Assembly: GCA_050250375.1 (NCBI GenBank)
Contig: JBFWOS010000003.1
Location: forward strand, 559,286 to 623,285
From: Candidatus Omnitrophota bacterium
GTDB lineage: Bacteria > Omnitrophota > Gorgyraeia > Zapsychrales > Zapsychraceae
Direction of reading: 5' to 3'
Length of the DNA: 64,000 nt
Within the stretch, counting starts at the first letter, position 1. Every line of letters starts with the position of its first letter. The notes below the pieces were generated by a model, which worked only from the letters and a program-made list of their open reading frames with translations, was not told where the DNA came from and made no database searches. Below, one piece after another: positions 10,851-63,976 of this stretch. The translations under genes were made by a program, and so were the position numbers.

Positions 10851-10892
10851 AAATGAATTAGTTTTATATAACCCGGTCAACCAGAGGTCTCC

Positions 10893-11282: not shown

Positions 11283-11290
11283 CATTCCCT

Positions 11291-13059: not shown

Positions 13060-13061
13060 CG

Positions 13062-14042: not shown

Positions 14043-14180
14043 TCATTACTTTTACATAAGCCCGATGGTTAAGCCATAAAAAGACAAAATCTGCGTCTAT
14101 TCATAAGACCGTATTATAAATCCTTAACCAGGATTTCGTAACAGAAATATTACCATTGCTTTTGATAGATTGTTTTATAA

Positions 14181-14192
14181 CGTGCATATGCA
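14181..14192. promoter_or_regulatory. Perfect 12-bp palindrome GTGCATATGCAC in the intergenic region upstream of the rsmB/F-like gene
   Basis: Shares the GCATATGC core with a 14-bp palindrome upstream of mutS. Function unknown. Confidence 0.2.
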
Positions 14193-14213
14193 CATTAAAA
14201 ATTAAAAAATTTT

Positions 14214-21361: not shown

Positions 21362-24300
21362 CTAACGCCAGACGATTCTCAACTCACCGGCCGGAAAATT
21401 AAAAACAAGGACAGGTTCTCCGTTTTCATCAATAACAATCTCACTCTGCCCCAGGTGAATCCAGTCGAAAAACAAATTAGGGATGCGCATGAATCTGCGG
21501 TCATTTTCATCGAGATAACTTTCCTGATAAATCCGTTCTTCTTCCACCCAAACACCCGCTGGAATAAACCAGGCCGGCACTGGAGTGACCGGCTGCGGAA
21601 TAATAAAATGGTCCAACACCCGCAATTGTTCCATCAAAAGTTCTTCGTGACCGATAATGTTTAACGGAATGTTAATAGATTTCTCGATCGGGATGATTTT
21701 AAAATCGATATAAAGACGGCCCGGAACTTCTTCAACCGGTTCCGGCGGCAAATACTGGGCCAGGAATCTCAGACGTTCAAGGACAAATGGATAATCCGGC
21801 AGGCCGGTCAGAGGAACGTCAACAAATTTTTCGATCGGCGGCATCGTTTTATCAATCTTGACCACATCCGGATATCTTCTCAATGGTTCGGGTGGTAAAT
21901 ACTGTGCTAGCATCCGCATCCGATCTCTAATAAAATCGTAATCCGGTAATCCAATGAGCGGAATATCAACGGATTTTTCAATCAGTTCGACTTCTGCATC
22001 TATCTTAACCGGCAAAAGCATGGCATCCTCTTTACTTAAGACAACCCGATAAATTTCGTCCCCCAAGTGATCGGCCTTAAATTTTTTCCATTCCTGACGC
22101 TGGTCACGTCTAAACCGTTCCCGGATCTGCTGTATGTAACGGACATCCTGCTCTTTGATCTTTTGGGTATAGAACTCCCTCCACGCCGCGGTATTTTTAG
22201 ATGACGTATCATAAAGTTCAGGCAGACCCCGGGTCAAATACAATTCACGAGCCAGTTGCGCCTGTTCATCCTGTCCGTTTGTTCCATCTCCTAGATTTGA
22301 AGACGCTATAAAGACGGCACTGCGTCCAACCTGTTTTTTCGTCAAATCGCCGGGTTTACGTTCAAGATCGCTCAATGGAACATCCACTGATTTTTCAATC
22401 ACGTCCATGCTCTTGTCAATCCTGATGACATCCGGATATCTTCCAACGGGCTCCGGCGGTAAATACTGCGCCAACATTCTCATACGCTCCCGGATAAATT
22501 CATAATCCGGCAACGCGGTCAGCGGGATGTCAACCGATTTCTCAATAGGATCCATGCTCTTGTCAATCTTGACAACATCCGGGAATCTTCTCAATGGTTC
22601 CGGTGGGAAGAACTGTGCGAAAGCCTGCATTCGTTCTCTGATAAAATCATCAACCGGCAATCCGGTCAACGGGATATCAACAGTTTGTTCGATCCGTCCT
22701 ATCTCTTGATCAGCTCCGGTCTGATCAAACACAATCGCGTAGGCCGCATCCTCTATATGATCTTCTTTGAATTTCTGCCATTCGGGGCGAAGATCCCTCT
22801 TAAAACGTTCCCGTATTTGCCGGATAAACTGCATATCTCCTGACTTAATTTTTTCACTGTAATAATCCCGCCAGACCGCCATCTGCTTCGGCGTGGTTTT
22901 ATACATCTCGGGAAGCCCCCGCGTTAAATATAACTCACGAGCCAATTGTGCCTGACCCTCCGTTCCTTCGGAGTTGTCTCCCATCATGGACGAAGCCAAA
23001 AAGACCGCACTGCGCACGACCGGCCTCATCAATAAAGCACCCGGCTTACGTTCAATGTCACTTAAAAGAACATCGACTGACTTTTCGATCGGTTCAAGTA
23101 TTTTGTCGATCCTTATGACATCCGGATATCTTCCAACGGGCTCCGGCGGTAAATACTGCGCCAACATTCTCATACGCTCCCGGATAAATTCATAATCCGG
23201 CAACGCGGTCAGCGGGATGTCGAGCGACTTCTCGATCGGTTTCATGGTCTTGTCAATCCTAATCACATCCGGATATCTTCCCATGGGCTCCGGCGGTAAA
23301 TACTGAGCCAGCATTCTCATACGCTCCCGGACAAACTCATAATCCGGCAGTCCCGTCAACGGGATGTCGATGGATTTCTCAATCTTGACCAGATCTGTGT
23401 TGATCGACCCGGGATTAAATACAATTTCAAAAAATTTTTCGTTTAAATAGTCTTCTTTAAATTTCTGCCATTCCGGACGCAAATCCCGTTTAAAACGTTC
23501 ACGGATCTGCCGGATTATCTGGACGTCCCCGGCTTTAATCTTTTCGACATAATAATCCCGCCAGACCGCTGTCAGTTTCGGTGTACTTTCATATAACTCA
23601 GGAACACCCGTCGTCAAATACAGTTCGCGGGCCAACTGCGCCAGGTTTGATTGGCCAATGGTCTTGTCGCCGGCGCTGGATGAAGCAAAAAAGACCGCGC
23701 TGCGTACAACTGGCCTCTGCGCTAAATCTCCGGGCTTGCGTTCGATATCGCTTAATAAAACGTCAACGGATTTTTCGATCCGCTCCAGGCTCTTGTCAAC
23801 TTGAACCAGGTCCGGATATCGGCTGACTGGTTCCGGCGGCAAATATTGGGCCAGCATCCTCATACGCTCCAGGATAAATTCATAATCCGGCAGGGCTGTC
23901 AGCGGGATGTCGAGCGACTTCTCGATCGGTTTCATGGTCTTGTCAATCCTAATCACATCCGGATATCTTCCCATGGGCTCTGGCGGTAAATACTGAGCCA
24001 GCATTCTCATACGCTCCTGGACAAACTCATAATCCGGCAGGGCTGTCAGCGGGACGTCGATGAATTTTTCAATCCTGACTGTATCTTGAATGGCCTTCTC
24101 TTTATCAAAGACAGCCGCGTAACGCTCATCGTTCAAGCGGTCCTCTCCAAATTTCTTCCATTCAGGACGCGTGTCCCTTTTCAACCGTTCCCGCAATTGC
24201 CGGATAAACTCACGATCACCCGTCTTGACTCTTTCATCATAAAACTCACGCCACACTGCCTTTTGTTCCGGCATACTATCAAACATCTCCGGAATTCCCG

Positions 24301-27300
24301 AGGTTAAATAAAGTTCACTCGCCAAAATGGCCGGATGATCCGGCCCTTCGGACTTGTCCCCGACAATCGCTGATGTCAGAAGCAACGATCCGTGCGTGAC
24401 CGGCCTCCTCGAAGAATCACCCGGTTTGCGTTCAATGTCACTTAACGGGACTTGAATTGTCTTTTCAATCGGATATAAATTAATCTTGATGTACGGACGC
24501 TGCGGAACTTGTTGAACAGGTCCCGGAGGAAAATACCGGGCAAGCATCTTCATCCGCTTAACCACAAATTCGTAATCCGGCAACGCCGTCAACGGGATTC
24601 TAACAGGCGGTTTCACCGTTTCCATAACCCTTTCAATCCTGACGGGTGACGGCACCCTCGTAACCGGTTCGGGAGGCAGATATTGCGCCAGCAATCTTAA
24701 CCGGTCGAGGACAAACGCATTATCCGGAATGGCCGTCAGCGGGATCTCGATGTAATCTCTCGGCCGGATTACGACCGGGTCAATCCGCGGCATGGCTGGG
24801 ACGGAAAGGAATAATGGATCCGGGAGTTTCGTCGGTTTGTAATCTAAGGTGATCAGGGCAAACATCAAAGGAGGATGTATGATCGGTAGAATGCGGAACG
24901 GTTCAGAATTTATAATATTTACCCTGAATCGCAGAGGATCGCGCAGATACAAAATATTCGGAATTACTTTAAACATCTTTTGTCCATTCGAAACTATAAC
25001 GCCAAACGGTCCCCATTTTCTAGAAAATAAAGGTTCTGCGACTTGGCTGTATAACGGTGTTCCTCTCCATATAGATATATCATTGTCACCTGTTTTTTGC
25101 CCTAAACTTTCGGGTTTTCCGAACCTCGGATAAAGAATTTCCTTCCATAACTTCAACTTGACCGGTTCGTTTGCATCCGCGGTTCTCAGGAAAAACTCCG
25201 TTGATTTTCCGGCAGGCAATGTGACCTGTAAGTACCCGCCTAAGTCCAGTCCGCAGCCTTCCGGGTTCACACAAAAATCCCGGAGGTAATAAATAATCGG
25301 CCACCGCGGGAAGAACGGTTCACGGTCATCAAAGTATTCTTCGTAAAAGACCTGGTAACGCAAATCCCATCGTCGGTCTGCGCCGAATTTTTCAAACGCC
25401 AGACGGCGTTCATCAACCCTCCTCGTACTGATCCCGGCGATAAGCGTGTTATCCGTTTTGGCCAACATCGAAGAATCATCAGACGTACTTGCTTCTTTCA
25501 AGTCCTCAAAGACAACCCCATAATCCTTGTTCTCTTTCCGGTCTTCTTTAAACTGCTGCCATTCCGGACGCTGGTCTCGGATAAACCGTTCCCTGAGTTG
25601 CCGAATATATTCCTGGTCCTTGTTTTTTACCTTGCGGTCATAAAACTCCCGCCACGCCGCAATTTGATCAGGGCTGGTTTCATATTTTTCCGGGACACCT
25701 TTGGTCAGATCCAGTTCCTTCGCCAACAAGGCCTGGTCTCCTTCACCCTCGGCTCTGTCGCCTGTATTGGTTGAAGCAAAAAAGACAGCGCTTTGTTGAT
25801 TTTCTCCTTTGTAAATTCTTTCTGATTCAATAACCGCGTGAATGACAACCTTCTGGTAGTCACTCATCGCTTTTTTACTCAGGAGAATGTTATTTATATT
25901 CGCCCATAACGATTTAACAAGTTTATTCATGTATTCGACTAATAAATCCAGCAACGATTCAATAAACTCTGCCCCCTTGAAAAGGATATTCAAAGCACTT
26001 TCCTGATGATGACTTTGCTTCAAATCCGGTATCGTCAAAGGAACATCAATGGATTTTCCAATGATAAATTTATCTTCAGCCATCATCAGCGGACCGATAA
26101 TATCATCGACCGTTAACTCAGGAAGAGTCAGTCCCGTAAGCAAGAAATGTTCCGTCTGAACCGGTTGCAAATTAACATAAACGGAGTCGGCTAACCGTCG
26201 GGTAGCAGGCATCTTGAATGACTGCAGCTTGATACCGGCTAATTCAAAGACGATTTTATATTCCGGATGGTTGACCCGGTCAGACCTGAAGTGCTGCCAC
26301 TCTGGTCTAAGATCCGTTTCGAAACGCCGGGCAATCTGCCGTACATATTCGGCATCATTTGATTTTACTTTTTGATCGTAAAAATTCCTCCAAGCCGCTA
26401 TTTGTTCTTCACTGCTTTCAAACAATTCCGGTACACCTTTGGTCAGATCCAATTCTTTAGCCAACTGGGCCTTATCATCATTACCGGACGTACTGTCTCC
26501 TGTATTGGTCGATGCGAAGAAAACGGCGCTTTGGCGGACTGGACGTTCTTTCCGTTCCCGTATTTCTTCCACGGCTCTTGTGACAATTTCCTGACGGTGA
26601 ATCATCGCTTCTTTATTCAAAAGGACGTCTTTGATCTTGGCCCACATAGAATCAAAAAGTTCATTCAGATAATCAACCAGAATATCCAGCAATGATTCGA
26701 ACTGGGTCAACGCCTCAAAGGAAATATAAACTGCAAACTTCTGGGAATGAGTATCATCCAGATCTGGTATAACCAACGGGATGTCGATGCTCTTTCCAAT
26801 CATCAGTGTTTCCGGGATAACAAACTGACGATCCAGAAGTTCATCAACAGATAATCGAGGAATGCTTAACGGTTCATTCCATGGTGTTTCCACCCAAATC
26901 TGATCAACACTATCCGATATCGGTTGAACGACATATACATCGACAACAAATGATGAACGGAAAGTTGCTGAACCCGTTTCGATTCCAGGTCCGGATATTA
27001 TACGTCCGAACACGGATTTGTATTCCGGTTGGTTCATACGGTCTTTTCTGAACGATTGCCACTCTTCACGCTGGTCAGTTTCAAATCGTCGGGCGATTTG
27101 TTCAATGTACTTCAGATCGCCGGATTTAACCTTTTGATCATAGAAGTTTCTCCATGGGGCGCTCTTTTCAGGTGTCGATTCATAAATTTCCGGAACTCCC
27201 CTGGTCAGGTCGAGTTCCTTGGCCAATAAGGCCTTATCATCCGCCCCGGCAACACTGTCGCCGGTATTGGTCGATGCAAAGAATACCGCGCTGTATGTTT

Positions 27301-30300: not shown

Positions 30301-33300
30301 CGTAACGTTTTCCTTCGATGGTTACCGTTTGAGCCAGAACTTGTTTTTCCAAAATGAGTTCGCCGGATGATTCTACTGTCTTGATCATCAATACAGGAAT
30401 GTAGACACGTTTGCTCTTTCCGCCTTCGGTATATTTGTAAACAAACCGCTGTTCATACTCGACCCGTCCGTTCTCAACAGCGATGATCTTGCGTTTGTAT
30501 TGGTCACTACCTTCATTCCGTTCAACAAAGGTGACTGCGTTCGACTGTTCATCTTGCTGAGCTCCGGTCATAAAGGCCGTATCTGTAACGATCATGTTGG
30601 TTTCATAAATCAATTTTTGTCCGTAACTCAGCTCTCCGCCGAAATTCAATTCAAGTGGTTTATCTTGATGATCCGCGGTGATGCTCATGGCGCTGGCGGC
30701 AACAACAACGGTCTGACCGTCAGCGTTTGTTTCAAAGGCCGTAGCCTGGTATGTTTCAAAACCGGTTCCGGCATCGATGGAAACATTGATTGCCGTCGTT
30801 CCGGTCCTGTTGAGGGCAATTATGATCCTGCGTTCGGTGTTTTCCGTGATCAGCTGATTGATTTTTTGGTTGACTTCCGACTGGGTGATGCGGCCGGCCT
30901 GGCTCTTGGCCGCAGAGACCATACTGTGGATTTGTGACCGGACTTCCAGAGTATCAAGGATTGTTTCAGCCAGGAACCGCTGACGGCTTACATCGCCTTC
31001 CGCGACAGCATGTTTAATATCGCGGCGCATCGTCAGGTTAACGTTCGGATCGTTCTCAACAATAATGATCAATTTGGCCCGATTAATATCCAGACGTTGT
31101 ATGCCGGAACCTTCTCTCAAATTTGAACGTGAGGTGAACTGGATAGCTTCCGCTGTTGCAGTTGATCCGATAAATACCGTGTTGGCTTTAGTCGGTGCTT
31201 CGCCCCGGATCTTAGCCAGGATGTTGGAACCGCCGGAGAGACCTAACTGAACGACGATGACTTCCAGGTTAGGATCTCTTTGGGCTTGCTCAACCAATCG
31301 TTTGGCCGCGGCTTCCTGCACCGGATCCGGCTGACCTTTCAATACGGCATCTTCTCCGACAATAACGATTAATTTCTCCCTGCCGAATGAGACTTTCTCG
31401 CCGTCCATCAGTTCAACGTCCCTGACCCTAAAGACATTGTCCGTCCCTTCAACCGGACTGGCGGTTCGGAGTAAACGTTCCCGTAATTTTCCAAATCCCA
31501 GTGCGTTCCAGATGGAAACGAGGATGACCCGGGCGCTGAGCGTGTTCAATTCAGGATCCGTTATCGTTTTCAACAAGACGTCAACCACCGGTTCGCCCGG
31601 CCGGTCATAGCTGGCCCTGGTCAAATCAAAGTTTAATTCCAGAACATCCGGCAGCCCGGATTCTTTACCGGCCCTGAATATCCTGGCGCCCTGCATTTCC
31701 GCAGACAGGCGCATAGATTCTGCGGTCGCCGTCATACCGATCGCACCGGCCACCAGACGATGGACATCCGCCGCCTTGACAGCGTGTTCAACCTTAGACA
31801 ACGCAGCCGTCATGTAATTATCCAGTTTCAGCCGTTCGATGGTGACGATGGCCCGGGCCAGATGGGCGTCTCCCGGGATAGTTCCCGGTTGAGCGAATTT
31901 GTTGACCGTCAACATATAAATACCCAGGTCACTGTCGGCATCCCGTCCGTAGACCGGGTTATCACGGGCATACATCGCCTCGACAAACGCATTCACTTGT
32001 TCCGTGATCTCTTTGCGGGTTTCCGGAAGCACTTCAATATTCTCTTCCCTTAATTTATTAATTTCACGCTGATATTCTTTGAAGAACCTGGCCAGCGGAG
32101 ATAACTGTTCACCCTCAAGCAGGTATTCGGAACGAAGGACCGGGCGTCCGTGCTGATCGACATCAAAGATCAATTCTTTCTGACCGTTGACTTCGCTTAA
32201 CATACGGTCGAGTATTTCATATTTGATCATATCCTGACGGGCCATCATTTCCAGTTCAAGCAGTCTCTGTTTCGCTTCGGCATTACCGGCCTGCGCCTGT
32301 TCTCTTAATTCCTGCAGTCTTCGTTGTCCCTTGATCAAATCAGCGGACCGTTCAAACGCGTCGCTTTCGTCGTTGATTTCAAAGACACGTTTGCCGGTTT
32401 CGCTGTTCAATAATTTGAGAGACACCAATTCTTTTGAATCTTTGAAGTCTCCGACGTTGATCCCTTCTTCAAGGTTAAATTTCCCTTCTTGTTTGACTCT
32501 TCGGATTCCGCCTTTTTCAACGATTTCACGCAGCAACGGATGGTTCATGAAATCACCAACCTTGGCTTCCGGTACGTTAAACAGGATGATCACTCTGCCG
32601 TTTGTTTTTCTGTACAACCAGCGGGCAATGGCTGCAGCCAGGTCAGATTTACCAATACCGGTATCGGCGGAAACGATATTAAATTCGCCTTTCTTGTCCA
32701 TAAACGCGCGGGCTGTTTCTATAAAGACCTTGGCCGCGTGGATCTGTTTGAGACGGCCTTCGGATAAGTCGTAACGGGTATTGTCACCTTTGCTGATAAT
32801 ATAGGCTTCCATATCGCGTTTGACTTCAGCCAGGAATTCGTATAATTCCAGGACTTCATTTTCAAACCGGCTTCGGTTTTGTTTGGCCGATAATTCTGCC
32901 GCCCGTTCTCCATCTTTAAACAGACGCTCGACTTCTTTTGATACTTCGATATAATGCAGGTTGATCTTTTCTGTTGATTTTGTCTCGGATGGTGTCTTTC
33001 TGACGGACGGTTCACTGGATCCCTGTTTATTATTTCGGCGGACAGATGGATCGACACGGTCCAAAATACGGCCCAGCCGGGATGATGACCGTTTAGCGGA
33101 CAGAGCCGAACGATCCTGATTATCTGAACCTCTTTGAACATCTTTCCGCCCGGAACGGACCACCCGTCTGAACACTCTCAATATCCATTCATACCACGGA
33201 TCTTCCGGCGGCTCCGGAGGACCGTTAGCCGGACCAGACAACAACGAGTCTTTAGCGTTAGCTTTTTTATTATCTGAACGGGAATTGGATGATGACCCGC

Positions 33301-51300: not shown

Positions 51301-54300
51301 GGTCCGCATTGTCGCCGGTCGGGAATTCGCTTGCGAAGGCATACGGATCGGCCTTGATCCTGACCACTTTGTCCCGCCCGATAATGCGGAATTTGTAAAG
51401 GGCGCCTTCGGTGACCCGCGGCACATATATCGACCAGACGCCGGTTGATGGATCAAATCTCATGCGGCCGCCTCTGTGCTTCCAGCCGTTGAAATCACCG
51501 ATGACAGAAACGGAGCGCGCATTCGGCGCCCAGACGGCGAAGTAGGTCCCGTAGACGGTATGTTCCGTCTTGACCAGGTGAGCGCCGAGCTTATCATAAA
51601 TCTGGCTATGCGCGCCTTGCTGAACGAATAACAGTTTATCGAGGTCTCCGAACTGCAGGCCTTGCATAATCTTTAGAACGCGGGCTGATTCTTCATCCAG
51701 CTGAATGTGACCTTGTTCGACGGCCGCAGATATTTCGCTGACGGCTTCCGGACGGCTGGCGTACGTCAGAAGGCTGTCCTGAATATAATTATTCAGATAA
51801 TGTTCTTCACGGGCGCTGTTTTGTTCATGCGTCAGATCAAATTCAGCCAGGGCGCCGACTTCATGGATCAAACTGGCCGCCATCTGATTGACGGTCAGGT
51901 ATCCGAGTTCTTCATATTCCGCCGCGTTGGACAGGACGATGTATTCCTCACCGTCATAAACGTAAACAGCAGCGAGGATTCCCGTCACCGGACCGGCGCG
52001 AAGGAGTCCGGCACGGGCCATGGTTCTCAGGCGCTGGGCCATGGCTTTATAACCGTTTGCGCGCAGGTATCGATGGGCGGCGATTACGGCCGGATGATTG
52101 ATGGCCACCATTTCCAGCCGTTTGATATCTTTATCTCGTGATTGTTCAGTGGCGGTTTTAAGGAATGCGAACGCCTCTGGTGTCAACGCTTCAGCCGTTA
52201 CTCTCCATGTCCAGTTGTTTTCAACCGTACCGGGTTTATTCATCCGGGCTTCTTCATCCAGGCCGAGAATATCTTGTAACGGAACGATGGCGAGACGTGA
52301 TTTTGAATCGACAGCCATCTGGACAAAACGTTCATGAATATCTTCTTCTATATTTTCTTCCGCGAGATGTTCCGTTATTTCACGTTTCTGTTCAGCAGTA
52401 GCTTCGCGGGTATACCAGCCTACGGTGGTATTATTATCATGAGTACCGGTGTAGACCACAGAATTTTCAACGTGATTGTCCGGATGGTAACGATGATCTC
52501 CTTCAAACCCGAACTGAAGAACGTTCATGCCTGACAATTCAAATTGTTTAAGCAGGACCGTCACGTCCTCTGTAATAATCCCCAGGTCTTCAGCGATGAA
52601 CGGCAGCGATGGGAATTGTTCGCTCAGATGGCTGAAAAAGTCGGCGCCCGGCCCAGGCACCCATTCGCCAGCCAGGGCGTTTTCGGCCTTGGCCGGGATG
52701 GACCAGTAGCCGGCAAATCCGCGGAAATGATCCAGGCGGACCAGGTCGAAATAATTCAACTGCTGCTGCAGACGCATGGTCCACCAGTCGTAGTTATTTT
52801 CCTTGAGCGCATCCCAAAGGTAAACCGGGTTGCCCCAAACCTGGCCAGTGGCACTGAAGGCATCTGCCGGCGCGCCGGCGACATGAAGCGGCTGGTTGTC
52901 TTTGCCCAGATCGAAATATTCTCGGTGGGCCCAGACATCGGCGCTGTCATGGCTGACATAGATCGGCGCGTCTCCGATAAACCGGACGCCTTTCTCAGCG
53001 GCGTACGCTTTCAAGGCCCGGAATTGTTTGTAGAGCATAAACTGCACAAACATAATCTCTTCAACAGCGGCCTTATGTTGTTCCCGGTAATTGGCCAGGA
53101 TCGTTTCGTTTCTGTCTCTTAATGAATCGGTCCATTCATACCAGGCTTGCCCGTTGTTATTTTCTTTCAGGACCATGAACAACGCGTAATCTTGTAACCA
53201 ATAATTATTGTTGAACATAAAGAGTTCAAATTCACTGTTGCCGTTCTTGGCCTTGAAGCGTTCATAGGCCAGTTTGAGCAGGCCTCCCTTGAAGGCAGCA
53301 ACGGTGTTGTAATCGACCTTGGTTTCATCCGTTGTTTCAAAGGCGGCCGCTTCTTCGGCGGTCAGCAATCCTTCGGCGACCAATTTCTCGATGCTGATCA
53401 TCAGAGGATTCAAGGCGAAGGCTGAATCGCTCAGGTACGGTGAATTTAATGTTGAAACCGCGGTCGGCGTCAACGGCAGCATCTGCCAGTAACGCTGCTT
53501 GGCTCCGGCGAGAAGATCGACAAACGCGTAAGCAGCCGGTCCGAAATCACCGATGCCGTGGCGTGAAGGCAATGAGGTTACGGACAGCAGGACCCCGCTT
53601 TCTCTCGGCTGGATGATCCGTTCGACTTCGAAACGGACTGATTGTTGATCCGGCATTTCTTCTCCCGACACCGGCCGCGCAGGATCTTTGGCGGCGACGG
53701 TTTCGAATGTTCTGACCAGATATTCGAACGGACGAAGCGTGATTGTTTCTTGAGCGGTAAACGCGCTTTGCTGGCCGTTCTCAACATTGGTCCACACGCC
53801 CTGGGCATTACTTTGGCCAGAATTCCACTCTTCCGCCCAGAGGTGAAGGGTGAATTGACGGGTTTCACCGGAATAGTTGGCGATGACCAGCGCCTGTTCC
53901 TGGGCGAGGCTGCGTTGATAGGCGATCACGCCCTTCGGCAAGTCTCCGGTATGAACCGCATTTGTGTCACCTTTGCGCCATAACGCTGATTTCGTTTTAT
54001 TTAACCAGGTATCATAAAATTCCTTCTGTTCTTGATCATACGGCTCGGCTTCATGGTTTTGGGTAACATAGGTTGCGTTCGGTTTTTCGTTTGAACGGCC
54101 GCGGCGCTGGCCGGCGTTGATCATCACCATACCCGGCATGGTCATCATCAGGACAGCGGCTGCTCTTTGTTGTTCACGGTTCAATATCCTGGCGACGCGC
54201 TCGGACGGATCATCATGGTTTTCCAAGAAATGGACGGTGCGCGTTAAATATTCATTTGATGTGCGTTGCCGGTTGGTCAGGTAATCTCTTAATTCTTCAA

Positions 54301-57300
54301 CCGGGAAACGCTGTTCGACCAGGATGTCGAACACATGTTTGTCGTAGGTAAAATGAATGCCCAATCGCTGCAATGCCCCTTCGTGCTGGGCATAACCTTC
54401 GCCGATCAGGATGGCGTTGTTGTATGCACCTAAGAATTCATGCAGGAATCCAGGGATAAATTCTTCTGTTAGGATCTCATTTCCGCCTAACGGTTGTAAA
54501 TCACGGTTGATATGTTCTTTTAACAGCAGATGCGCCATATCGATTCTGGCACCGCCGCCGTTGGTGATATCCAGGATGTATTGCATTTTCGCGGCCATCT
54601 GGGCTCTTAATGCCGGGTTCGACCAGTCTAACTGGGCGGTATCGATCCATGAACCGGAGAACCCTTCTTGTCCGTGCAGAATGGCTTTCGGCCCATTTGC
54701 TGTTTGGACCATAAAGTAACGATTCGTGTATTTCTTGACATCTTCGCGGTTCTTCAAATATTCACTCAGGGTCGTGACCGGTTCATTCAATTGAGCCGCG
54801 TCGCGTGAAATGAACCATTCCGGATGGGCGATGGTCCATGGTGAATCGGCGGCCATGTGGTTCGGAACAAAGTCGACGACCACTTTCAGGCCGGCGGCGT
54901 TGGCGCGTTTGACAAATTTGCGGAACGATCTCTCCGTACCAAATTCTTCGTCGATCGTGTAATCTTTAATGCTGTACGCTGACCCGACCCGTTTTGGATC
55001 CCACATCTTGTTGAAGTCTGTTGTAAATTGTCCTCTCTTCCAGATACCCATCATCCAGATCACATTAAATCCGTCGGCTCTCATCGTTCTGAGGGTTTTA
55101 TTGTCAATTTCATCGAACCGGCGGCCTTTTTCGCGGGTATGCCATAAGAATAAATGGGCGCCTTGTGTTCTGATTTCTTCATCGAGATCAGACCCTGGTT
55201 GCGTAGCGGCCGGGAATTCCCCGCTAACCTTTCGTTCAGCCAGTTCAAAAATTCTGCGGTTATAGTCTGCGTGGACTTTGGCCGCCGCGATAATCGCCTC
55301 TTCCTTGGCCAGCCAGGCGATTTGCGCATAATCCATATCCGGCAATTGCCGTCTCAATGTTTCCATCGCCCGTTGCAGTGTCTGCGCATAAACCTTATCG
55401 ATATCAACAGCCAGCTGGAATAAGATCATTTGTTGTTCGACAGATGGTACAACCCACTTTCTCAGGCTCGGCACATAAACCCGTTTGTGTTTGGCCACAA
55501 ACAAGTTTGGCGGTGTGCGTTTGAAATGAACGGTGCGTTCCGCTTCTTCATCGATCGGGGCGACATTGATCGCGTGGAATTTAACGGCGGTGTAATCGGC
55601 ATTGACCAATCCCGCGCTGTAGATGACAGATGGTGGTGCGTTGATCTGGTTGAGTTTACCGGATGCGGTCTGATCAACGATCACGTAGAGATTATGTTGA
55701 CGCTGCAATCCTGAGGCCGGCACCTTCGGCGTCACATCACCTTCAAGCGCGGCGGCCATAATACCAGCCTTCTTCTCGCCGTTGGCCATGAAGAATGTGT
55801 TGCGGGCTTCAAAGATATCGGCCAAGCCCATGGTATAGGCGTATGGAACCCGTCGGATGTCTGCGTAGTCACTGATGTTGGAATCAATCGTGCTTTGGGT
55901 CAAGCGGATTTGTCTTATTCTTGAGCTGAATTTATTATCGGCTGAAGGTTCATTGAAGGCCAAATGTCCGTTAGCACCGATGCCTAACATCACGATGTCC
56001 GCTCCGCCCATCTGTCTCAACGTTTGCGTATATCGTCTCAGATAAACCGGAAGAATGAAGGCTGTGTAGACCGGGCTTAAGATGTATTTGGTCACAATAT
56101 ACGGGATAGATTTATATTGGTACGGATCATATTTCACATAATCTGCGACCAGATGGATATTTTCTTGCGGGATCGCGACTCTGGAGAACAGGTTCTCGTT
56201 CAAGAAATAAGCGAATGACGCTTGGTGATCCCTGGTGAGACCTCTGTATTCATCCAGATGGAACGCGTTGATGCGTGACCATTCAATTCCTTCTATCCTG
56301 GCCAGTTCGTGCAGGAATTGTTTCATCGTGTTGCCGGTGGCAAAGATAATATTGATCGTTTCTTTAACCTTTAATAATTCTTTTATCTTGGCCGCGACTT
56401 GTCCGGCGGCGCCAGGGGCGAATTGGTCAGGAGCGTACACACTTACGTTATTCGTCTTCGCGGTTTGTTCTCCGGCCATTTGTTCTTTATCCGCATGGCG
56501 AACGGCTTTGAATGCGGCTTTGGCCAGCCAGACAAACGGACCGACGAAACCGATGAAGACCAGATACCATTTATTTCTTCTTAATTGGGCATCTTTAATG
56601 AAGAACCCTTTCTTGTTCACGGCCGATGAGTAGAAGATGTTGAAGAATTGAGTAGAAATACCGTCCAAAGCCACTGCAACCGCAGATAACGCTGGATGTT
56701 GAATCATTAAGCCGCGCAGGATCGAATAGAAGCGGGTCATCCAGAACGCTTCAAATTGTTTTTCGTGGGCCTTAAGCGCTTCTTCTCTTAATTGTTCAAC
56801 ATTGCCACGGATCAGTTCAACCAGCTTGCTATAACCAAACGATCTTAAGCGAACCATCGCCCCAATGCCGACAATCTTCAGGGCAGAGATGAAGGCTGTT
56901 TCTAAATCAGCTGGCTGGTCACCAAACAGACCCGGCATCACTTGGCCGGCCGCCCAGACAATGATAGTAATAGCCAAAGTACCAAGTGCGACGAAACGGG
57001 TTGTCATAAAGAAATTCCTGATTTTGAATGTCTTGAAGAAATTGACCGTGCGGGCTTCCACCATACTTCCAACGACATAGGTCAGGCCGAGGAAGGCGCT
57101 GATCGACAAGATCAGATATCCGAGCATCACACCTTTTGGCGCGATCACGGTGAAGTAGGCCAAACTCAAGAGGCCCATCGCGAGGCCTAACGGGAAGGCG
57201 AGCACGACTTGTTTCTTGATGATGCCGTGGCCACTGATCCACTGTCCGGTGAGGTCGGTGGCGGCCATAAAGATACCGAAGACGATGATATTGGCCACCG

Positions 57301-60300
57301 GAACGGCCACCACGCTGGTCAACAACGCGAACAGATATCCGTAGGTCAACAAGGCCAGGCCGGAGATCGCCGCCACGCTGATCAACGCCTTCACCAGGAC
57401 GCCGTTTCTCGGACGGGAAACTGGCCGTTCGTTCGTTGTTTTACGGACCGGCTCATCCGGCATCATGGCCAGCGGGGCCAATCCGTTCTCAATGACACCG
57501 GCGCGGCCGATGAACAGCGGTTCGATGAACCTGAATGAATCGGCCGGAACGATTTTGTTAACAGCCAGATGCTCCAGGAACAGCGCGGCGTTGAATACAT
57601 GCATGGTCGGTTCGCCGCTTAGATTGGATACTTGGTCGGCCGGGATCGCTTCGCGCATCTTCTCGATTTCCTGATCGGTATCGATAAATATGCGATGGCG
57701 CCGTCCGCGGGCGATCTCATAGGTGATCCAGGCCGGATCAGCCACGGCGCTGTAAACCTTAGGCTGTTTCAGGCCGTTCAATTCTTCTTTCTTAAGGATC
57801 AGGTAAGCGATATCAAATGAATAACGTAATAATTTTTGTTTGTCTTCGTTGCTAAAGCTTGACTTCAACACGTTTTGTTCGACCCTCTTGTTCAACCGTT
57901 TTAATTCTTTACGGTTAAGATCTCTGTCTTCCTTGATGAAGCTCAAAATTTGAGCCGGAACAACCCAGGCAAATCCGACTTCCGGAACAAAATTCCATTT
58001 AAACGCGGTCTTGACCGGAAGTTTGTAGGCAAAATGGTAGAACAACAGGATCGGTGAACGGATCAACCCGACCACAAACGATGAAACAAGATATGAAATA
58101 ACTGCGGCTGCCGCTGTAAAGAAGATGTTTCCGCCGGATAAGCTGAAATAGACGTAAGCCGTTGATGTTGAAACGCCCAGGATCTTGACCGTTTCGGTCA
58201 CGACTTTTGAGGCCAACAATGTATAGAACATGGCCCAGTAGCCGTTGATTTGTTTTTGGGTCAGACGGCCGCTCGCCAGGGCGCGGTGTGAAGCGAATAT
58301 CAGCAGTTTACGCAGGCTGTTGACTTTTACGGTCACGGACTTCTGGGCTGCCCGGCTGCCGGCGCGGGCCATCAGGAACATACCCCATACGGCCAGGAAC
58401 AGGACGAATTCAGCGATCCCCTGTCCGAATTTGTTTAAGGTGGAGGCAACGCCGCGAACTTCAGTTTCCGATTCCCCAATCGTTTTAACTTTAGTTTCAT
58501 GTGTTAATGAACGGGCGCTGCCTCCAACAGGTTGTATTTCTGAAATTATTTCTTGAGAGTCTACAGGGGTGATGCCGACAACTTCGGTTTCCGATTCCCC
58601 AATCGTTTTAACTTTAGTTTCATTTGTTAATGAACGGGCATCACCCCTGTTAGATTTTGTGGAGACAGCACCTTCAACTTTTGCTCCCGATTCCCCAATC
58701 GTAACTTTAGTTTCTGTTAATGAACGGGTGCTGTCTCCAATATGTTGTGTTCCTGTTTGAACTTCTGGTGAAATTACAGGGGTGATGCCGGCATCTTCAG
58801 TTTTCGATTCCCCAATCGTTTTAACTTTAGTTTCATTTGTTAATGAACGGGCATCACCCCTGTTAGATTTTGCGGAGACAGCACCCTGGTCTTCAGTTTC
58901 CGATTCCCCAATCGTAACTTTAGTTTCTGTGAACGAACGACGGGCGCTGTCTCCGACATGAGCTGCATCTCCTTGGAGATACATATCGGTCAATATTCTT
59001 AATTGGTCTGATGTTAATTGCGGATAGTTTGGTTCAATGTCGGCCTGAGGATTGACGCTGAGTCTTTCGGCCGTGAGAGCTTTTTGTCTGTCCTGGGCGG
59101 CGATTTGTGCGTTGATTTGTTCTGACACATCGCGGCCTTCTTCTTCCAGGCGGATCATATCGACGAAGAATGGAATCATGATGACTGGGTCATAGGCTTC
59201 CCAGCTGCCGTTGTTTTCACCGGTACGGCTGTATCTGAATCCGACATGGATATGGTCTTCAATCGGCCGGCCGTTTAAGCGGTCTGCGGCATTACCGGTG
59301 ACGCCTGAATGACCAACGACTTGGCCGAGTTCGACCTGTTCTTGCTGTTTGACATCGGATTTTGTTAAATGACTGAACTCGACGCGGATCCAGATACCGG
59401 CGACTTTGCGGTCAACAAAGACGACCAGCCCGTCTCTGCTTGTCTCGACTTTAAGGATTTGACCTTCCCAAGGCGTTCTGACCGGGGTATTGCGCGGCGT
59501 CAAGAAATCAACCCCACGATGATAATCGCTGTTTAATCTGAACGCGCCGAAATAATTGTACGGACGGATCAACCGTTTGATGACATCTTCAGGTTTTTCC
59601 ACCGCTTGAACGTCGGTTGCATCCATATTCGCCTGCTCAACGGTGTTAACTTGACCGACGGCCCGAAGGGAAAGAACGAGCAGAACGATAAACAACACGG
59701 CCGCGAGTATCACAGAGACCAGGCGTCTTGTCGGTGTTCCGGCTTTTCGGGCTGTTTGTTCCGCGGCGAACAGTTCAGTGACGGTGCGGTCAATCGGACG
59801 GTTATAGTCAAGCGCGCCAAGATTGATCACGATAAACAGTGTTTGATATTTTTTACCCTGATGTTCTTCGTCAATCGTAATGAATCGGTAAGCGTCCCGG
59901 CCTTCTTTGGCTAAAAGATCAAGCACTCTGGTCTGGAATTCCATGCCGCGGGAAGACACATTTCGATTAATGACGGTGTCGATCCCTTTGTTAAACAACC
60001 ACTGCAGCGTTATGCGGTAGGCTTCAACGGAATATTGTTCACGGATCAATTTTGATGAGCTGGTGGAAACGACGGCCGGTTTGCTCTTGCCCCTGAAGAA
60101 CACCCCGATATTCAAGTCGCCGGTTGTCTGGTTTTCACGATCACGTAAATCAAGCAGGATATGTGTCTCTTCCCGTGAGGTGCCGCGGACGTTGAGTCGG
60201 GCGATCTTGCCATCGAGGACGGTTCCGGCGAACATTTCTTCATAAACGGTGTCGGATTTTTGCTGATCGGTCAGGTCTAGATCGACCAATACGACCAGGC

Positions 60301-63300
60301 CGGTCAGTTCGTTCAGATAATTTTCAGAAACTTCAATACCGAACGTTCTGAATGCGTTTAATAATTCTGTCAGTTCTTTTTGGTTGGCGGCTGAAGTGAA
60401 ATAAGAAATACTTGTATTGTTCCGGACCGTCTCCTCATCCTTACCGAATTGTTGATGGCCAAACTCATGACGGAAGACATCCGCCAGCAATGTAATAAAT
60501 TCTTCAGTTGATTTTTTGCCGGCTGTGAATGGCGGCGCGCGTGCGAGGAAGGCGCGGTTGACCATCACGATACCGGCTGTTTCACTATATTCAGCCAGCC
60601 GCTGGGCCAGATCGGTAATTTCTACATGAGCAGCCTGAGCCAGCTTTCCGATCTTTCTTAAGGCTTCAGCCACGTACAATTGTTGATCGATTTCATCCGC
60701 AGTCCGGCCGGACGGGGTATGGCCGCGTAATTCAGCCGGATAATTATGAGATGGACGGTTTGTCATCGGATGGGTCAATATCCATTCCGCCATCAGCCGG
60801 CGGTATAAGGCGGCCGGGTTATCCGCCGCCTTCCTGCGGATTTCCGCGGCGGTCAGCCTGACCGCGTTCAAGACCCCGCGCTGATCGATCAGGCCCCGGA
60901 CATGTTCCAGGTTTTGCGCTGCCGGCAAGCCGAGGATATTCCATCCTTGCAAGAAGTTGCTGACAATCCCGCGGTGCCCGTACGGCGTCGCTTTCAGGTG
61001 GAATTGTTTGGCCGCGTAAGTCACGTCCAGCGAAAGAATTTCCTGTGTTTCCAGTTCGCCCAACCGGGCCATCTGGGCGGCCATATGTTCGATGGTGACG
61101 TACAGCCATTGGGCTTCCTTCGATAACGGGCCGTTGGTCAATTGATGGGACAACTGCCGGACCAGGCCGTTGAGCAGCTTGAAATTCATGGACGGCCATA
61201 TGACCGTACCATGATAGTTGTCTTCAAAGACTTCGTACAGGTCGGCTTCTTTCAGACCGTTACGGTTTTCCGCCGCCAGCGGAGCTTTGACCACACGTTC
61301 CGCAGCCGATACCGGTATGACGTTGGCCAAGACCGGCCCAAAGGTGGTGGCGTTGCCGCCCAAAGCCACCGGGGTCAAGATCACCCTCAGTCCCTGGCGG
61401 ATCTGCTCGAGCGTGTACCCTTCGGCGGTGGTCGTGCCGAAAGTCAGTTCGTCCGTATCCGGCAGGGTGATCTTTTGTCCACTGCGGTCCAAAGCGATAG
61501 CGACATATTCCAGCGTTTCATCGGCCAAAGCCTGATCCAGGAACCGTGACACGCCGGCCAGGAACCGTTCGACGCTGTTATTTTCGACGCGGATATTGGA
61601 ACCAATAATCTTTTGCGCGTCGGTGATCAGGGCTTTTACATACGACAGGTCGCCCATGCTTTGTTCGATTTCCCAGGCCATCCAGGCAAGAATATTCGTT
61701 TTCAATTGTTCTTTGGTACGGGTCACCTTAAACGGCTGGTCGGCCCCGTTCCAGACACCGATCAGCGTATCAAAGTCCACACCGACAAACACTTCAAACA
61801 CGCCGGCTTCCTGAAGACGGCGGATCGCCTTCAGGGCCATCGGCATTAACAGGATATTGATCAGGGCCGCATAGGCGCCGAACCCGAGAGAATTATCCGC
61901 GTCTCTCCATGTCATGCGCGGATCGTTGTCCCTGGCGCCGACCATCGTGCGGTATGTCAACGGCTGGGTGATGCCGCCGGCGATGGCATAAACATGACGG
62001 GAAACGTCTCTGAGAATTTCGCCGACCGTTCTGATTTCTTTTTGATGTCTTAGGAAGACCGGTTCGTTGTGGTCGAGAAGTTTATATCGCAACAACGTTT
62101 CGGCCAGGCTCAACAGCAGCAGTTCCGTATCCACCCGGTTGGCTTTAAACCGTTTCTCCGCGTGCGTCTTGCTGGCGAAACGGATATCGGTTTCGTGGGT
62201 CAACTGCCCTTCCCGGACCAGACCCAGCAGATGGATGAATTGCGAGCGCAGGACTTCCGGACGGACATAGCCGATCAATTCCCGCAGGATGATGACAGTA
62301 TCGCCGCCGAACGGCGTCAGATAATACGGTGAACCGGCCAGAATGGCGGCGTTCTTGGTGATCAGGTATTGACCGGTGTACAGTTGCATCATGAAGCGGT
62401 CATATCGGGCCGTACCGCGTAATTGTTCGGCGGCCTTAAGCACATCAGCAGTATAAAGTTCTTCCAGCGTGTAATGTTCCAGCGGCGTGTGGTTGCTGGC
62501 GATGTCCACCGTGAAGCGCACGGCCCGGCCGTCCGCTGGCCGGCTGATCACCAGACCGTTATTTTCGTTAACGGTGACGGTGGTGCCGGCGTTGAAGGCG
62601 ACCGTCAGGACATAATAGTGGGAGTCACCGTTGCCGTTGTCTTTGGCCGGCTGCAGGGCTCGCAGGACCACCCCTTGAGGCTGACGGATGATCTGCCATC
62701 CGCCGACCTTGATATCATGGCCGTTGCCGACATTTTCCTGAATATCGCGGTTGGCTTCCGGGTCATCCCCGGTGCGGCGGTTATAATTTCTGATTGAACG
62801 GCCGCTGCCGAACAGCATGTTGTCCAGAACCAGATCGCCTTGTGTTTCGACGGTCATGGTGTATCTCACCCCGCTGAATCCTTGCTGGCCGGCGCCGAAC
62901 GGTTGCCCCGGCTCGACGCTCATATAACGGATCGCCGGCACAGACGCTTTACCGTTGATCACCTGACTCATCTCGAAGGTAACCTTGGTGTTTCCGGTTG
63001 CCCGGGAAATATCGATGGCAGTGGTGTCGGCCAGATTGGTCCGCACCAGGTGGCTGAACAGGTTGCGGCCGGTGTCACGGGCCACCACATTCAGAATACC
63101 GCCCTGTTCTTTGACGACGACGGTATCTTGTTCATGATCGATGATGATACCGGCAACAGCTTTCGCGGACGCCAGACGGTTCAACGCCTGCATGTACTCC
63201 GTCTGAACGGTTACGCCGAATTTTCGATAAGCCTTCAGCAACTCGGCCAGTTCCCGACGGTTGACGGTTGATTGGAAGTACAGGATGCTGGTGTTCGCCT

Positions 63301-63976: not shown

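What the first reader, a model, noticed from the sequence alone, without database searches (positions are those of the whole stretch)
21362..63976. A single uninterrupted 42.6-kb reading frame (at least 14,204 aa) occupies two-thirds of the window
A stop-free frame of 14,204 codons is not expected by chance. The ORF is also dense with recognisable catalytic motifs all in the same frame, and it ends in a normal stop 52 nt from the convergent mutL. Giant genes of this size are rare in bacteria; reports of them that I can recall concern surface and predation functions. The domain content here is very different and has not been described to my knowledge.
Basis: seen in the sequence. Interest (0 to 1): 0.95.

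Follow-up and report, generated by a model that had tools for sequence, protein, structure and literature searches.

The report
Omnitrophota giant multi-enzyme membrane protein gene
The 42.6-kb stop-free frame is a real gene, one of the giant membrane-threaded multi-enzyme proteins already described in the tiny host-dependent Omnitrophota bacteria, and its main unreported feature is an almost complete lack of cysteine.

Summary
Window 21362..63976 (-) is one stop-free frame of 14,204 codons. About 695 stops are expected by chance. The frame is still open at the window edge.

It is not a new kind of gene. Flanking proteins are identical to NCBI proteins named 'Candidatus Omnitrophota bacterium'. 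Four related Omnitrophota MAGs carry collinear stop-free homologues. One is syntenic, followed by convergent mutL (84% identical) and a further convergent ORF in mutS's position.

Giant Omnitrophota ORFs with glycogen-synthase, glycosyltransferase and sugar-metabolism domains, many transmembrane helices and SecA-like domains are already described (Seymour 2023; West-Roberts 2023; Nielsen & Lui 2026).

Layout:
- two HExxH modules
- M23 peptidase
- transmembrane block
- NagB-like, GH13, MalQ, GlgB and GlgA run with intact catalytic motifs
- HAD, alpha/beta-hydrolase, GlnD-like and PLP modules
- SF2/SecA-like ATPase
- about 2,200 aa of orphan repeats

About 72% of the protein has no annotation.

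Not mentioned in the papers I searched:
- Only 2 Cys in 14,204 aa, against about 1.6% in cytoplasmic neighbours. Relatives share this.
- A 16-aa TKVTIGES motif 14 times, mostly beside transmembrane helices.
- Module gain and loss between orthologues.

Verdict: new member of a known kind, moderate interest.

The parts
21362..63976 (-). Giant ORF, 14,204 codons plus stop. The frame stays open to base 64000.
63173..63646 (-). HExxH (zincin-like) module, copy 1, aa 111-268 (LADILRHEFGHRQFG). No Pfam match.
   Evidence: 51% identical to copy 2 over 158 aa, E 1e-59
60296..60769 (-). HExxH module, copy 2, aa 1070-1227 (LADVFRHEFGHQQFG).
59666..59722 (-). First strong transmembrane helix, aa 1419-1437. 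K/R count is 4 before and 1 after, so predicted in-to-out.
59171..59566 (-). M23 peptidoglycan metallo-endopeptidase domain, aa about 1471-1602, with HRGVD and HIH motifs. Predicted periplasmic.
58424..59002 (-). First cluster (5 copies) of the [ST]RS[LF]T.E[TA]KV(K)TIGES[EG]TE motif, aa 1659-1851. At DNA level a 213-nt tandem repeat.
56510..58417 (-). Polytopic block of about 9 transmembrane helices, aa 1854-2489.
55646..56431 (-). Glucosamine-6-phosphate deaminase (NagB)-like domain, aa 2516-2777. Divergent and below NCBIfam cut-offs.
53723..55183 (-). GH13 alpha-amylase-family domain of unresolved specificity, aa about 2932-3418.
52142..53611 (-). 4-alpha-glucanotransferase MalQ (GH77), aa 3456-3945. 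Catalytic D/E/D motifs intact.
   Evidence: 566 bits; 636 bits against a cut-off of 477
49748..51631 (-). 1,4-alpha-glucan branching enzyme GlgB (CBM48 + GH13 + C-terminal domain), aa 4116-4743.
   Evidence: (889 bits against a cut-off of 741)
47816..49387 (-). Glycogen/starch synthase GlgA (GT5 + GT1), aa 4864-5387. KKGGQGDV and PSDYEPSGLTQ motifs present.
   Evidence: 315 bits against a cut-off of 328
47477..47659 (-). Transmembrane hairpin, aa 5440-5500.
44795..45505 (-). HAD-IIB (Cof / sugar-phosphatase-like) domain, aa about 6158-6394.
43589..44146 (-). Alpha/beta-hydrolase fold, aa 6611-6796.
41636..42595 (-). Nucleotidyltransferase plus GlnD-type uridylyltransferase-like region, aa 7128-7447.
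39371..39727 (-). Two transmembrane hairpins, aa 8084-8202.
36347..36868 (-). Second cluster of the TKVTIGES motif around transmembrane helix 9166-9184, aa 9037-9210.
34322..35356 (-). PLP-dependent (PALP) serine/threonine-dehydratase-like domain, aa about 9541-9885.
33371..34198 (-). Four transmembrane helices with three more motif copies, aa 9927-10202. Includes the layout KVTIGESGTKGRGA, then a transmembrane helix, then YSKIKRAIRIKK.
30947..32824 (-). SF2 / SecA-like two-lobe ATPase motor, aa 10385-11010. Motifs are ADTGIGKS, INDESD and GMTATAES.
21527..28339 (-). C-terminal orphan repeat array, aa about 11880-14150. It has 8 copies of a roughly 95-aa module (SAVFFASTNTGD...RPEWQKF) and at least 14 copies of a 49-aa IEKS.D.PLTALPDYEF motif. 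The last five units form a 690-nt super-repeat.
25253..25273 (-). The only two cysteines of the protein, C12902 and C12908 (CVNPEGC).
19529..21310 (+). Convergent mutL. Its position is conserved next to the syntenic orthologue in L006.

Best explanation
This is a genuine, conserved giant gene of a Candidatus Omnitrophota bacterium. It belongs to the already described population of very long, membrane-threaded, multi-enzyme Omnitrophota proteins: Archaeovorin-like in West-Roberts 2023, and class 1 'multi-enzyme metabolic cluster' in Nielsen & Lui 2026.

Shown here:
- One polypeptide of at least 14,204 aa carries about 24 hydrophobic helices, mostly in hairpins or blocks.
- These helices separate soluble modules in this order: two HExxH modules; an M23 peptidoglycan endopeptidase; an uninterrupted run of about 2,900 aa with NagB-like, GH13, MalQ, GlgB and GlgA domains whose catalytic motifs are intact; HAD, alpha/beta-hydrolase, GlnD-like NTase and PLP-dehydratase modules; an SF2/SecA-like ATPase; and about 2,200 aa of orphan repeats.
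- Relatives keep the order but gain and lose whole modules.

Inferred mechanism (about 45% as stated):
- The chain is inserted co-translationally into the inner membrane.
- The M23 loop and most TKVTIGES loops face the periplasm.
- The alpha-glucan module, which needs nucleotide-sugars and sugar-phosphates, and the ATPase sit on the cytoplasmic face.
- The protein therefore acts as a membrane-tethered scaffold. It couples envelope or host-contact functions to conversion of acquired sugars into branched alpha-glucan.
- The SecA-like motor helps thread the extracytoplasmic parts.
For: Reality of the ORF:
- No stop where about 695 are expected, with a uniform coding signature and native codon usage.

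Taxonomy:
- Eight flanking proteins are identical to NCBI proteins named Candidatus Omnitrophota bacterium on an 872-kb contig.
- All four genome loci that hold relatives are Omnitrophota MAGs.

Conservation:
- L004 and L005 are open over their whole 21.9 kb.
- L006 is collinear with the giant at about 54% identity. It ends at the same C-terminus and is followed by convergent mutL (84% identical) and a further convergent ORF in mutS's position.
- Metagenome fragments P0019 and P0018 span the MalQ-GlgB and GlgB-GlgA junctions. P0138 and P0144 cover further stretches.

Domains and motifs.

Transmembrane helices and the positive-inside pattern.

SF2/SecA-like fold.

Literature match.
Against: - Topology rests on a hydropathy and K/R count, not on a trained predictor, and some helices are ambiguous.
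- The near-absence of cysteine in every module is not what cytoplasmic enzymes of this organism look like. The giant has 2 in 14,204 aa, against about 1.6% in cytoplasmic neighbours. The depletion includes a position that is Cys in 90% of GlgB homologues. This fits an exported or extracytoplasmic protein better.
- The neighbouring 3,029-aa PEPCK / malate synthase / aldolase / isocitrate lyase fusion has an N-terminal signal-peptide-like sequence.
- Pfam SecA_DEAD itself is not matched.
- The in-window length is below West-Roberts' threshold of more than 30,000 aa.
- No expression or read-level data were available.
Confidence: 0.8

Rival explanations
1. Exported or extracytoplasmic giant. Most or all of the polypeptide, including the 'cytoplasmic-type' enzymes, works outside the producer's cytoplasm, either as a cell coat or delivered to the host cell. 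The SecA-like motor drives its own export. Cysteine is excluded because the chain must travel unfolded or fold without a disulfide system.
For: - The giant has 2 Cys in 14,204 aa. Homologue fragments and related loci are equally depleted: 2 Cys in 12,835 aa; 0 in 7,289; 1 in 5,851; 0 in 1,503; 1 in 2,522.
- Envelope proteins in the same window are also Cys-poor: AsmA-like 0 of 1,032 and secretin 1 of 490. Cytoplasmic neighbours have 1-2.6%.
- A Cys conserved in 90% of GlgB homologues is Leu here.
- The neighbouring fused enzyme protein starts with a signal-peptide-like sequence.
- West-Roberts and Nielsen & Lui also predict metabolic modules outside for many giants.
Against: - GlgA, NagB and the ATPase need ADP/UDP-glucose, GlcN6P and ATP, which are not expected outside a cell.
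- The ATPase module is just as Cys-free, so Cys-poverty does not discriminate sides within this protein.
- The positive-inside pattern puts the glucan module inside.
- No signal peptide is present at the in-window N-terminus.
- Another Omnitrophota fused GlgB fragment (P0134) has normal Cys content.
Confidence: 0.3
2. Polyprotein precursor. The giant chain is cut into separate enzymes or membrane pieces, by its own HExxH modules or by another protease. The repeated TKVTIGES motif next to transmembrane helices would serve as processing or sorting sites.
For: - Two paralogous HExxH modules lie near the N-terminus.
- There are 14 copies of a highly conserved 16-aa motif. Several sit in a motif / transmembrane helix / basic-cluster layout that recalls sorting signals. 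One copy is present in relative P0138.
- A CPBP/Rce1-like intramembrane protease gene lies at 11593-13131.
- West-Roberts raise cleavage by N-terminal peptidases.
Against: - No motif copy lies between the five alpha-glucan enzymes, so these would stay fused.
- The HExxH modules match no protease family.
- There is no experimental evidence of cleavage.
- The sorting-signal resemblance is recalled from memory and was not tested.
Confidence: 0.15
3. Assembly or annotation artefact. Separate genes were joined by mis-assembly, or the frame is kept open by errors.
For: - The short-read Logan contig breaks inside the 3' repeat array at about window 22454. Repeat copy number there could therefore be mis-assembled.
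- Only the last 348 aa (P0146) are independently recovered.
Against: - The probability of no stop by chance is about 1e-310, and the coding signature is uniform.
- Independent MAGs from other studies hold collinear open frames of 5,851 to more than 7,289 aa with the same C-terminus and the same mutL neighbour.
- Module junctions are spanned by fragments from other metagenomes.
Confidence: 0.03

Closest known systems
Archaeovorin-type giant proteins of Omnitrophota (West-Roberts et al. 2023, bioRxiv 10.1101/2023.11.21.568195; type sequence is the 39,678-aa protein of Velamenicoccus archaeovorus)
   Same: - Same phylum.
- Many transmembrane regions.
- GT5 glycogen-synthase and GT1 domains, glycoside hydrolases and a peptidase.
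- A divergent SecA/SF2-like ATPase without the SecA scaffold or wing.
- A domain-poor N-terminal region.
- A secretin gene within about 11 kb.
   Different: - 14.2 kAA in the window, against their cut-off of more than 30 kAA.
- No methyltransferase, NUDIX, HEAT or TPR domain was detected.
- Pfam SecA_DEAD is not matched.
- It carries a contiguous NagB-like / GH13 / MalQ / GlgB / GlgA run, HExxH modules in place of C39 or S8 peptidases, and an orphan C-terminal repeat array.
Class 1 'multi-enzyme metabolic cluster' long proteins (at least 10 kAA) of Omnitrophota (Nielsen & Lui 2026, bioRxiv 10.64898/2026.06.07.730766)
   Same: - At least 10 kAA.
- Many distinct Pfam families with none dominating.
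- The sugar-metabolism pair PF08323 + PF00534, plus a HAD hydrolase.
- Transmembrane-only architecture within the window.
- Close sequence relatives are rare. Only 8 were found among 1.84 billion representatives, in line with their 80% singletons.
   Different: GH77 and branching enzyme are not mentioned in that text. Nothing there concerns cysteine content, the TKVTIGES motif or module indels between syntenic orthologues.
Stand-alone bacterial glycogen enzymes GlgB, GlgA and MalQ (glg/mal operons)
   Same: Full-length domains with the canonical catalytic motifs. MalQ and GlgB pass NCBIfam equivalog or subfamily cut-offs. The closest GlgB homologues are about 50% identical.
   Different: - The three are fused in one frame inside a membrane protein.
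- No GlgC or GlgP was found.
- All cysteines are removed, including one that is conserved in 90% of homologues.
SecA preprotein translocase / SF2 helicase motors
   Different: No sequence-level match to SecA_DEAD. DinG and HrpB score as well as SecA. The model confidence is only moderate (pLDDT 66.8).

Membership tests
Omnitrophota giant proteins, Archaeovorin type (West-Roberts 2023) | Encoded in an Omnitrophota genome | tested here: met
   Flanking proteins are identical to NCBI 'Candidatus Omnitrophota bacterium' MAG proteins. All four related genome loci are Omnitrophota MAGs.
Omnitrophota giant proteins, Archaeovorin type (West-Roberts 2023) | Length above 30,000 aa (gene longer than 90 kb) | tested here: inconclusive
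   14,204 aa lie inside the window, with the frame open at the window edge. A conserved 'MTLP' N-terminus shared with L004 suggests the start may be at 63973. If so, the threshold is not met.
Omnitrophota giant proteins, Archaeovorin type (West-Roberts 2023) | Numerous transmembrane regions | tested here: met
   24 hydrophobic 19-mers with mean Kyte-Doolittle score of at least 1.6, clustered as hairpins or blocks. No trained predictor was available.
Omnitrophota giant proteins, Archaeovorin type (West-Roberts 2023) | Divergent SecA DEAD-like domain (present in most members) | tested here: inconclusive
Omnitrophota giant proteins, Archaeovorin type (West-Roberts 2023) | Domain set: glycosyltransferases, glycoside hydrolases, peptidases, methyltransferases, NUDIX | tested here: inconclusive
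   GT5/GT1, GH13/GH77 and M23 are present. No methyltransferase or NUDIX was found at E <= 1.
Class 1 multi-enzyme metabolic cluster, proteins of at least 10 kAA (Nielsen & Lui 2026) | At least 10,000 aa, with many distinct Pfam families tiling the chain and none dominant | tested here: met
   14,204 aa. Sixteen Pfam families score above their curated cut-offs and represent about 11 different domains, each present once.
Class 1 multi-enzyme metabolic cluster, proteins of at least 10 kAA (Nielsen & Lui 2026) | Sugar-metabolism module (PF08323 starch synthase, PF00534 GT1) | tested here: met
   PF08323 and PF00534 at aa 4864-5350. glgA scores 315 bits in NCBIfam.
NRPS/PKS megasynthases | Adenylation, condensation, ketosynthase, acyltransferase or carrier domains in repeated modules | tested here: not met
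   None of these families appears in Pfam scans of the whole protein.
Giant repetitive adhesins (RTX, Bap, cadherin or Ig-repeat surface proteins) | The chain is dominated by tandem Ig-like, cadherin or RTX repeats, with a secretion signal | tested here: not met
   No such Pfam family was found. Repeats are limited to the orphan C-terminal array and a short motif.
Canonical SecA | Preprotein cross-linking domain plus helical scaffold/wing, and a match to SecA_DEAD (PF07517) | tested here: not met
   No PF07517 match even at E <= 10. No PDB sequence match. Only general SF2-fold similarity.

The most novel reading that the evidence does not exclude
Near-total exclusion of cysteine is a conserved, selected property of this giant-protein lineage. 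The giant has 2 in 14,204 aa. Relatives 24-66% identical over the SF2-like region have similar counts. A Cys present in 90% of GlgB homologues is replaced.

On this reading the whole chain, including glycogen-type enzymes and an ATPase, transits or operates outside the producer's reducing cytoplasm. It would be a surface coat, or be delivered into the host cell where nucleotide-sugars and ATP exist. It would be self-exported by its SecA-like motor. It would be sorted or cut at the recurring TKVTIGES / transmembrane helix / basic-cluster sites.

That would make it a host-directed metabolic effector array rather than a housekeeping enzyme scaffold.
Probability: 0.25. Interest if true: 0.85.

Novelty: new member of a known kind. 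Interest (0 to 1): 0.45.

Why it matters
Giant Omnitrophota proteins are an acknowledged gap in knowledge. The published surveys cannot decide whether their metabolic modules sit inside or outside the cell, whether the chains are cleaved, or how they are inserted into the membrane.

This locus is a compact, well-conserved example. It has a syntenic orthologue, bona fide MalQ, GlgB and GlgA domains, and three simple sequence-level handles that can be tested across the published catalogues:
- cysteine exclusion
- a repeated motif beside transmembrane helices
- whole-module gain and loss between orthologues

It does not change what is known about which kinds of genes exist.

Tried and rejected
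- NRPS/PKS or adhesin identity was rejected, because Pfam shows none of their domains.
- An alternative genetic code cannot explain the frame. It is open under table 11 with all three stops counted, and neighbouring genes end normally.
- Selection against near-stop codons cannot explain the missing Cys. TGG, TAT/TAC and other one-step-from-stop codons are at normal levels: 167 TGG and 3.4% Tyr.
- Searches that failed or found nothing:
  - The whole protein or 5,000-aa pieces were too long or timed out.
  - aa 1-1400 found no homologue in the 5.8-billion-protein set, not even itself.
  - aa 1-1000 found nothing in GTDB genomes or JGI metagenome contigs.
  - PDB sequence searches of aa 5401-14204 found nothing.
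- Exact look-ups of mutL, mutS and the 371-aa TPR protein were not on record. The 5' end of the gene could therefore not be reached.
- My first self-BLAST missed internal repeats. A chunked BLAST found them.
- The AlphaFold model of the C-terminal repeat unit was unusable (pLDDT 48.9), so it was not fold-searched.
- A 7-sequence alignment was too divergent for the locus scan. A 3-sequence alignment worked.
- No terminator-like site lies between the giant's stop and mutL.
Full report
**1. Observation**

- The ORF listing reports one ORF at 21362..63976 on the minus strand, 14,204 aa from the first TTG.
- My translation finds no internal stop. The frame continues open for 8 more codons to base 64000, so the gene's 5' end is not bounded by the window.
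- From base composition about 695 stops are expected in this many codons, giving log10 P of about -310.
- The two other frames carry 32-80 stops per 1,000 codons.
- GC1>GC2 and the purine excess at codon position 1 hold in every 1,000-codon block.
- Codon usage correlates with the 13 flanking genes pooled for the comparison (r = 0.87).
- The stop lies 51 nt from the end of convergent mutL.

**2. Source organism**

- Window bases 1-14134 are 100% identical to a Logan contig from SRR27751815.
- Eight flanking proteins are exact matches to NCBI MAG proteins MGE0267850-865 / MGE3982433-448. All are named '[Candidatus Omnitrophota bacterium]' and sit on an 872,346-bp contig.
- The rest of the window holds ordinary housekeeping genes:
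  - tRNA-Pro
  - an AsmA-like/DUF748 protein
  - Ham1 and RNase PH
  - queCDEF
  - glutamate racemase
  - an Amidase_3
  - a secretin
  - a CPBP/Rce1-like protease with TPR
  - RsmB, MarR, mutS and mutL

**3. Anatomy**

Pfam on 1,000-aa pieces, NCBIfam and PDB sequence search give this order:

| aa range | Module |
|---|---|
| about 1471-1602 | M23 endopeptidase |
| 2516-2777 | NagB-like deaminase, divergent |
| about 2932-3418 | GH13 amylase-family domain |
| 3456-3945 | MalQ/GH77 (636 bits, cut-off 477) |
| 4116-4743 | GlgB (889 bits, cut-off 741) |
| 4864-5387 | GlgA (315 bits, cut-off 328) |
| about 6158-6394 | HAD-IIB phosphatase |
| 6611-6796 | alpha/beta-hydrolase |
| 7128-7447 | NTase + GlnD-like region |
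| about 9541-9885 | PLP-dependent dehydratase-like domain |

- Catalytic signatures of MalQ, GlgB, GlgA and M23 are intact.
- These domains cover only about a quarter of the chain. Relaxed Pfam scans of the remainder give nothing reliable.
- Reading the sequence directly shows two paralogous modules of about 158 aa with an HEFGH motif, at aa 111-268 and 1070-1227. They are 51% identical (E 1e-59).
- It also shows an SF2/SecA-like region at aa 10385-11010, with ADTGIGKS, INDESD and GMTATAES.
- The last roughly 2,200 aa are an orphan repeat array:
  - eight copies of a roughly 95-aa module
  - at least 14 copies of a 49-aa motif
  - the final five units form a 690-nt super-repeat
- A profile of this array finds only the giant's own truncated C-terminus on the Logan contig. 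That contig ends exactly at a repeat boundary.
- A hydropathy scan finds 24 candidate transmembrane helices in hairpins and blocks.
- By the positive-inside rule, the M23 loop and most motif loops face out, and the NagB-to-GlgA run faces in.

**4. Relatives**

- An exhaustive HMMER search of 1.84 billion representatives with the SF2-like region finds only 8 proteins, all fragments.
- A GlgB/GlgA query finds two fused fragments that span the same junctions:
  - P0019 covers MalQ-GlgB at 65.6% identity over 1,310 aa.
  - P0018 covers GlgB-GlgA.
- A GTDB scan finds four loci, all Omnitrophota MAGs from other studies.
- L004 and L005 are open over their entire 21.9 kb (7,289 aa).
- L006 is open for 5,851 aa. 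It is collinear with giant aa 2188-2516, 2779-4747, 9440-10074, 10169-12579 and 14026-14204, and it stops at the same C-terminus.
- L006 is followed by convergent mutL (84% identical to the window's) and a further convergent ORF (at least 794 aa) in mutS's position, which I did not compare.
- The gene is therefore a conserved, syntenic orthologue set. It evolves much faster than its neighbour (about 54% against 84% identity). It differs by whole modules:
  - L006 lacks giant aa 4747-9440.
  - L004 and L005, over the 21.9 kb fetched, show no match to the MalQ-GlgB-GlgA run.
  - P0138 joins giant aa 8202 directly to about 10156.
- L004 shares the giant's first 108 aa at 56% identity, and both begin 'xMTLP'.

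**5. Comparison with what is known**

- Seymour et al. 2023 report ORFs longer than 20 kb in many Omnitrophota genomes.
- West-Roberts et al. 2023 define 'Archaeovorins'. These have glycosyltransferases (GT5 glycogen-synthase-like, GT1), hydrolases, peptidases, glycolytic-enzyme domains, many transmembrane helices and divergent SecA DEAD domains. They note that the side of the membrane is uncertain.
- Nielsen & Lui 2026 catalogue 916 proteins of at least 10 kAA. [quoted passage not shown]
- The present gene fits this population.
- NRPS/PKS and repetitive-adhesin readings are excluded by the domain scans.

**6. Features not mentioned in the searched papers**

(a) Cysteine exclusion.
- The giant has 2 Cys in 14,204 aa, both in CVNPEGC at aa 12902-12908.
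- The ten cytoplasmic-type neighbours have 51 in 3,263 aa (1.56%). Four envelope-type neighbours have 5 in 2,269 aa (0.22%).
- P(2 or fewer Cys) is 3e-93 at the first rate and 1e-11 at the second.
- The depletion is shared by relatives:

| Relative | Cys | Length (aa) |
|---|---|---|
| Eight SF2-region homologues combined | 2 | 12,835 |
| L004/L005 | 0 | 7,289 |
| L006 | 1 | 5,851 |
| P0018 | 0 | 1,503 |
| P0019 | 1 | 2,522 |

- The neighbouring 3,029-aa fusion has 1 Cys in its first 2,126 aa, and that one lies inside its signal-peptide-like N-terminus.
- The 120 best hits to the GlgB/GlgA query (all but two are other GlgB proteins) have a median of 0.75% Cys.
- At a column that is Cys in 90% of them, the giant, P0018 and P0019 all have Leu.
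- The depletion is not universal in the phylum. The Omnitrophota fragment P0134 has 0.97% Cys.
- The word 'cysteine' does not occur in the four papers checked.

(b) A repeated motif.
- The motif [ST]RS[LF]T.E[TA]KV(K)TIGES[EG]TE occurs 14 times in clusters.
- Three clusters end directly before a transmembrane helix that is followed by a basic cluster.
- One copy is present in P0138.

(c) The module indels between orthologues described in section 4.

**7. Mechanism**

- Shown: a real, conserved, membrane-helix-rich chain with competent-looking alpha-glucan enzymes, a peptidoglycan peptidase and an SF2-type motor.
- Inferred, and my preferred reading (about 45%): an inner-membrane-anchored scaffold.
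  - The M23 and motif loops face the periplasm.
  - The glucan enzymes and ATPase face the cytoplasm, because their substrates (nucleotide-sugars, sugar-phosphates, ATP) are there and the K/R pattern agrees.
- The Cys exclusion and the signal-peptide-bearing neighbour keep a rival alive: an exported or host-directed chain (about 30%).
- A processed-polyprotein reading (about 15%) is compatible with either of the other two.
- Assembly artefact is very unlikely (about 3%), apart from repeat copy number at the 3' end.

**8. Verdict**

This is a solid observation and a genuine gene. It is a new, sequence-unique member of a known kind, not a new category. Interest is moderate. It comes from the testable handles the locus offers on the open question of where and how these giants work.

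Noticed in passing
L001 14222-20600 and beyond (about 6.5 kb to the left of window base 1, same contig): A second fused gene of 3,029 aa. It carries PEPCK, malate synthase, class I fructose-bisphosphate aldolase and isocitrate lyase domains behind a signal-peptide-like N-terminus (MISFNRKERGLTQRVISAFVAFSFVFTSVCPPQVAAQS). It has 1 Cys in the first 2,126 aa, inside that N-terminal segment.
   Followed up: partly
window 21362-63976 (whole ORF); only Cys codons at 25253-25273: Near-total absence of cysteine: 2 in 14,204 aa, against about 1.6% in cytoplasmic neighbours. Relatives 24-66% identical over the SF2-like region share this. A Cys conserved in 90% of GlgB homologues is Leu at aa 4343. The four giant-protein papers searched do not mention it.
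   Followed up: yes
window 58424-59002, 36347-36868, about 33850-34100, plus single copies at aa 8402 and 9410: Fourteen copies of a 16-aa motif, [ST]RS[LF]T.E[TA]KV(K)TIGES[EG]TE. Several sit directly before a transmembrane helix that is followed by a basic cluster. One copy is present in relative P0138. Function unknown.
   Followed up: partly
window 63173-63646 and 60296-60769: Two paralogous modules, 51% identical, that carry an HEFGH (HExxH) motif. No family match. They may be metallopeptidases.
   Followed up: partly
window 21720-24776: Five copies of a 690-nt (230-aa) super-repeat at 62-90% nucleotide identity. The short-read Logan contig ends at about 22454, exactly at a repeat boundary, so copy number here is the part of the assembly most open to error.
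   Followed up: partly
L006 32-17557 compared with window 21362-63976; L004 and L005: Syntenic orthologues differ by whole modules. L006 lacks giant aa 4747-9440. L004 and L005, over the 21.9 kb fetched, show no match to the MalQ-GlgB-GlgA run. P0138 skips aa 8202 to about 10156. Shared parts are about 54% identical, while neighbouring MutL is 84% identical.
   Followed up: partly
window 440-3538 (+): The AsmA-like/DUF748 protein of 1,032 aa has no cysteine. The secretin (8954-10426) has 1 in 490 aa. Envelope proteins of this organism are generally Cys-poor.
   Followed up: no
window 19529-19536: mutS (16930-19536) and mutL (19529-21310) overlap by 8 nt. No terminator-like hairpin lies in the 51-nt gap between mutL and the giant's stop.
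   Followed up: partly
window 49748-51631 (GlgB domain): Its best stand-alone homologues, at about 50% identity, are the roughly 1,150-aa 'modular' GlgB proteins of Candidatus Competibacter and Contendobacter (Gammaproteobacteria), not Omnitrophota proteins. Possible horizontal origin of the module.
   Followed up: no
window 5297-7475 region (from the L001 gene calls): A complete queuosine-precursor cluster (queD/PTPS, queC, queE, queF) lies between glutamate racemase and RNase PH.
   Followed up: no
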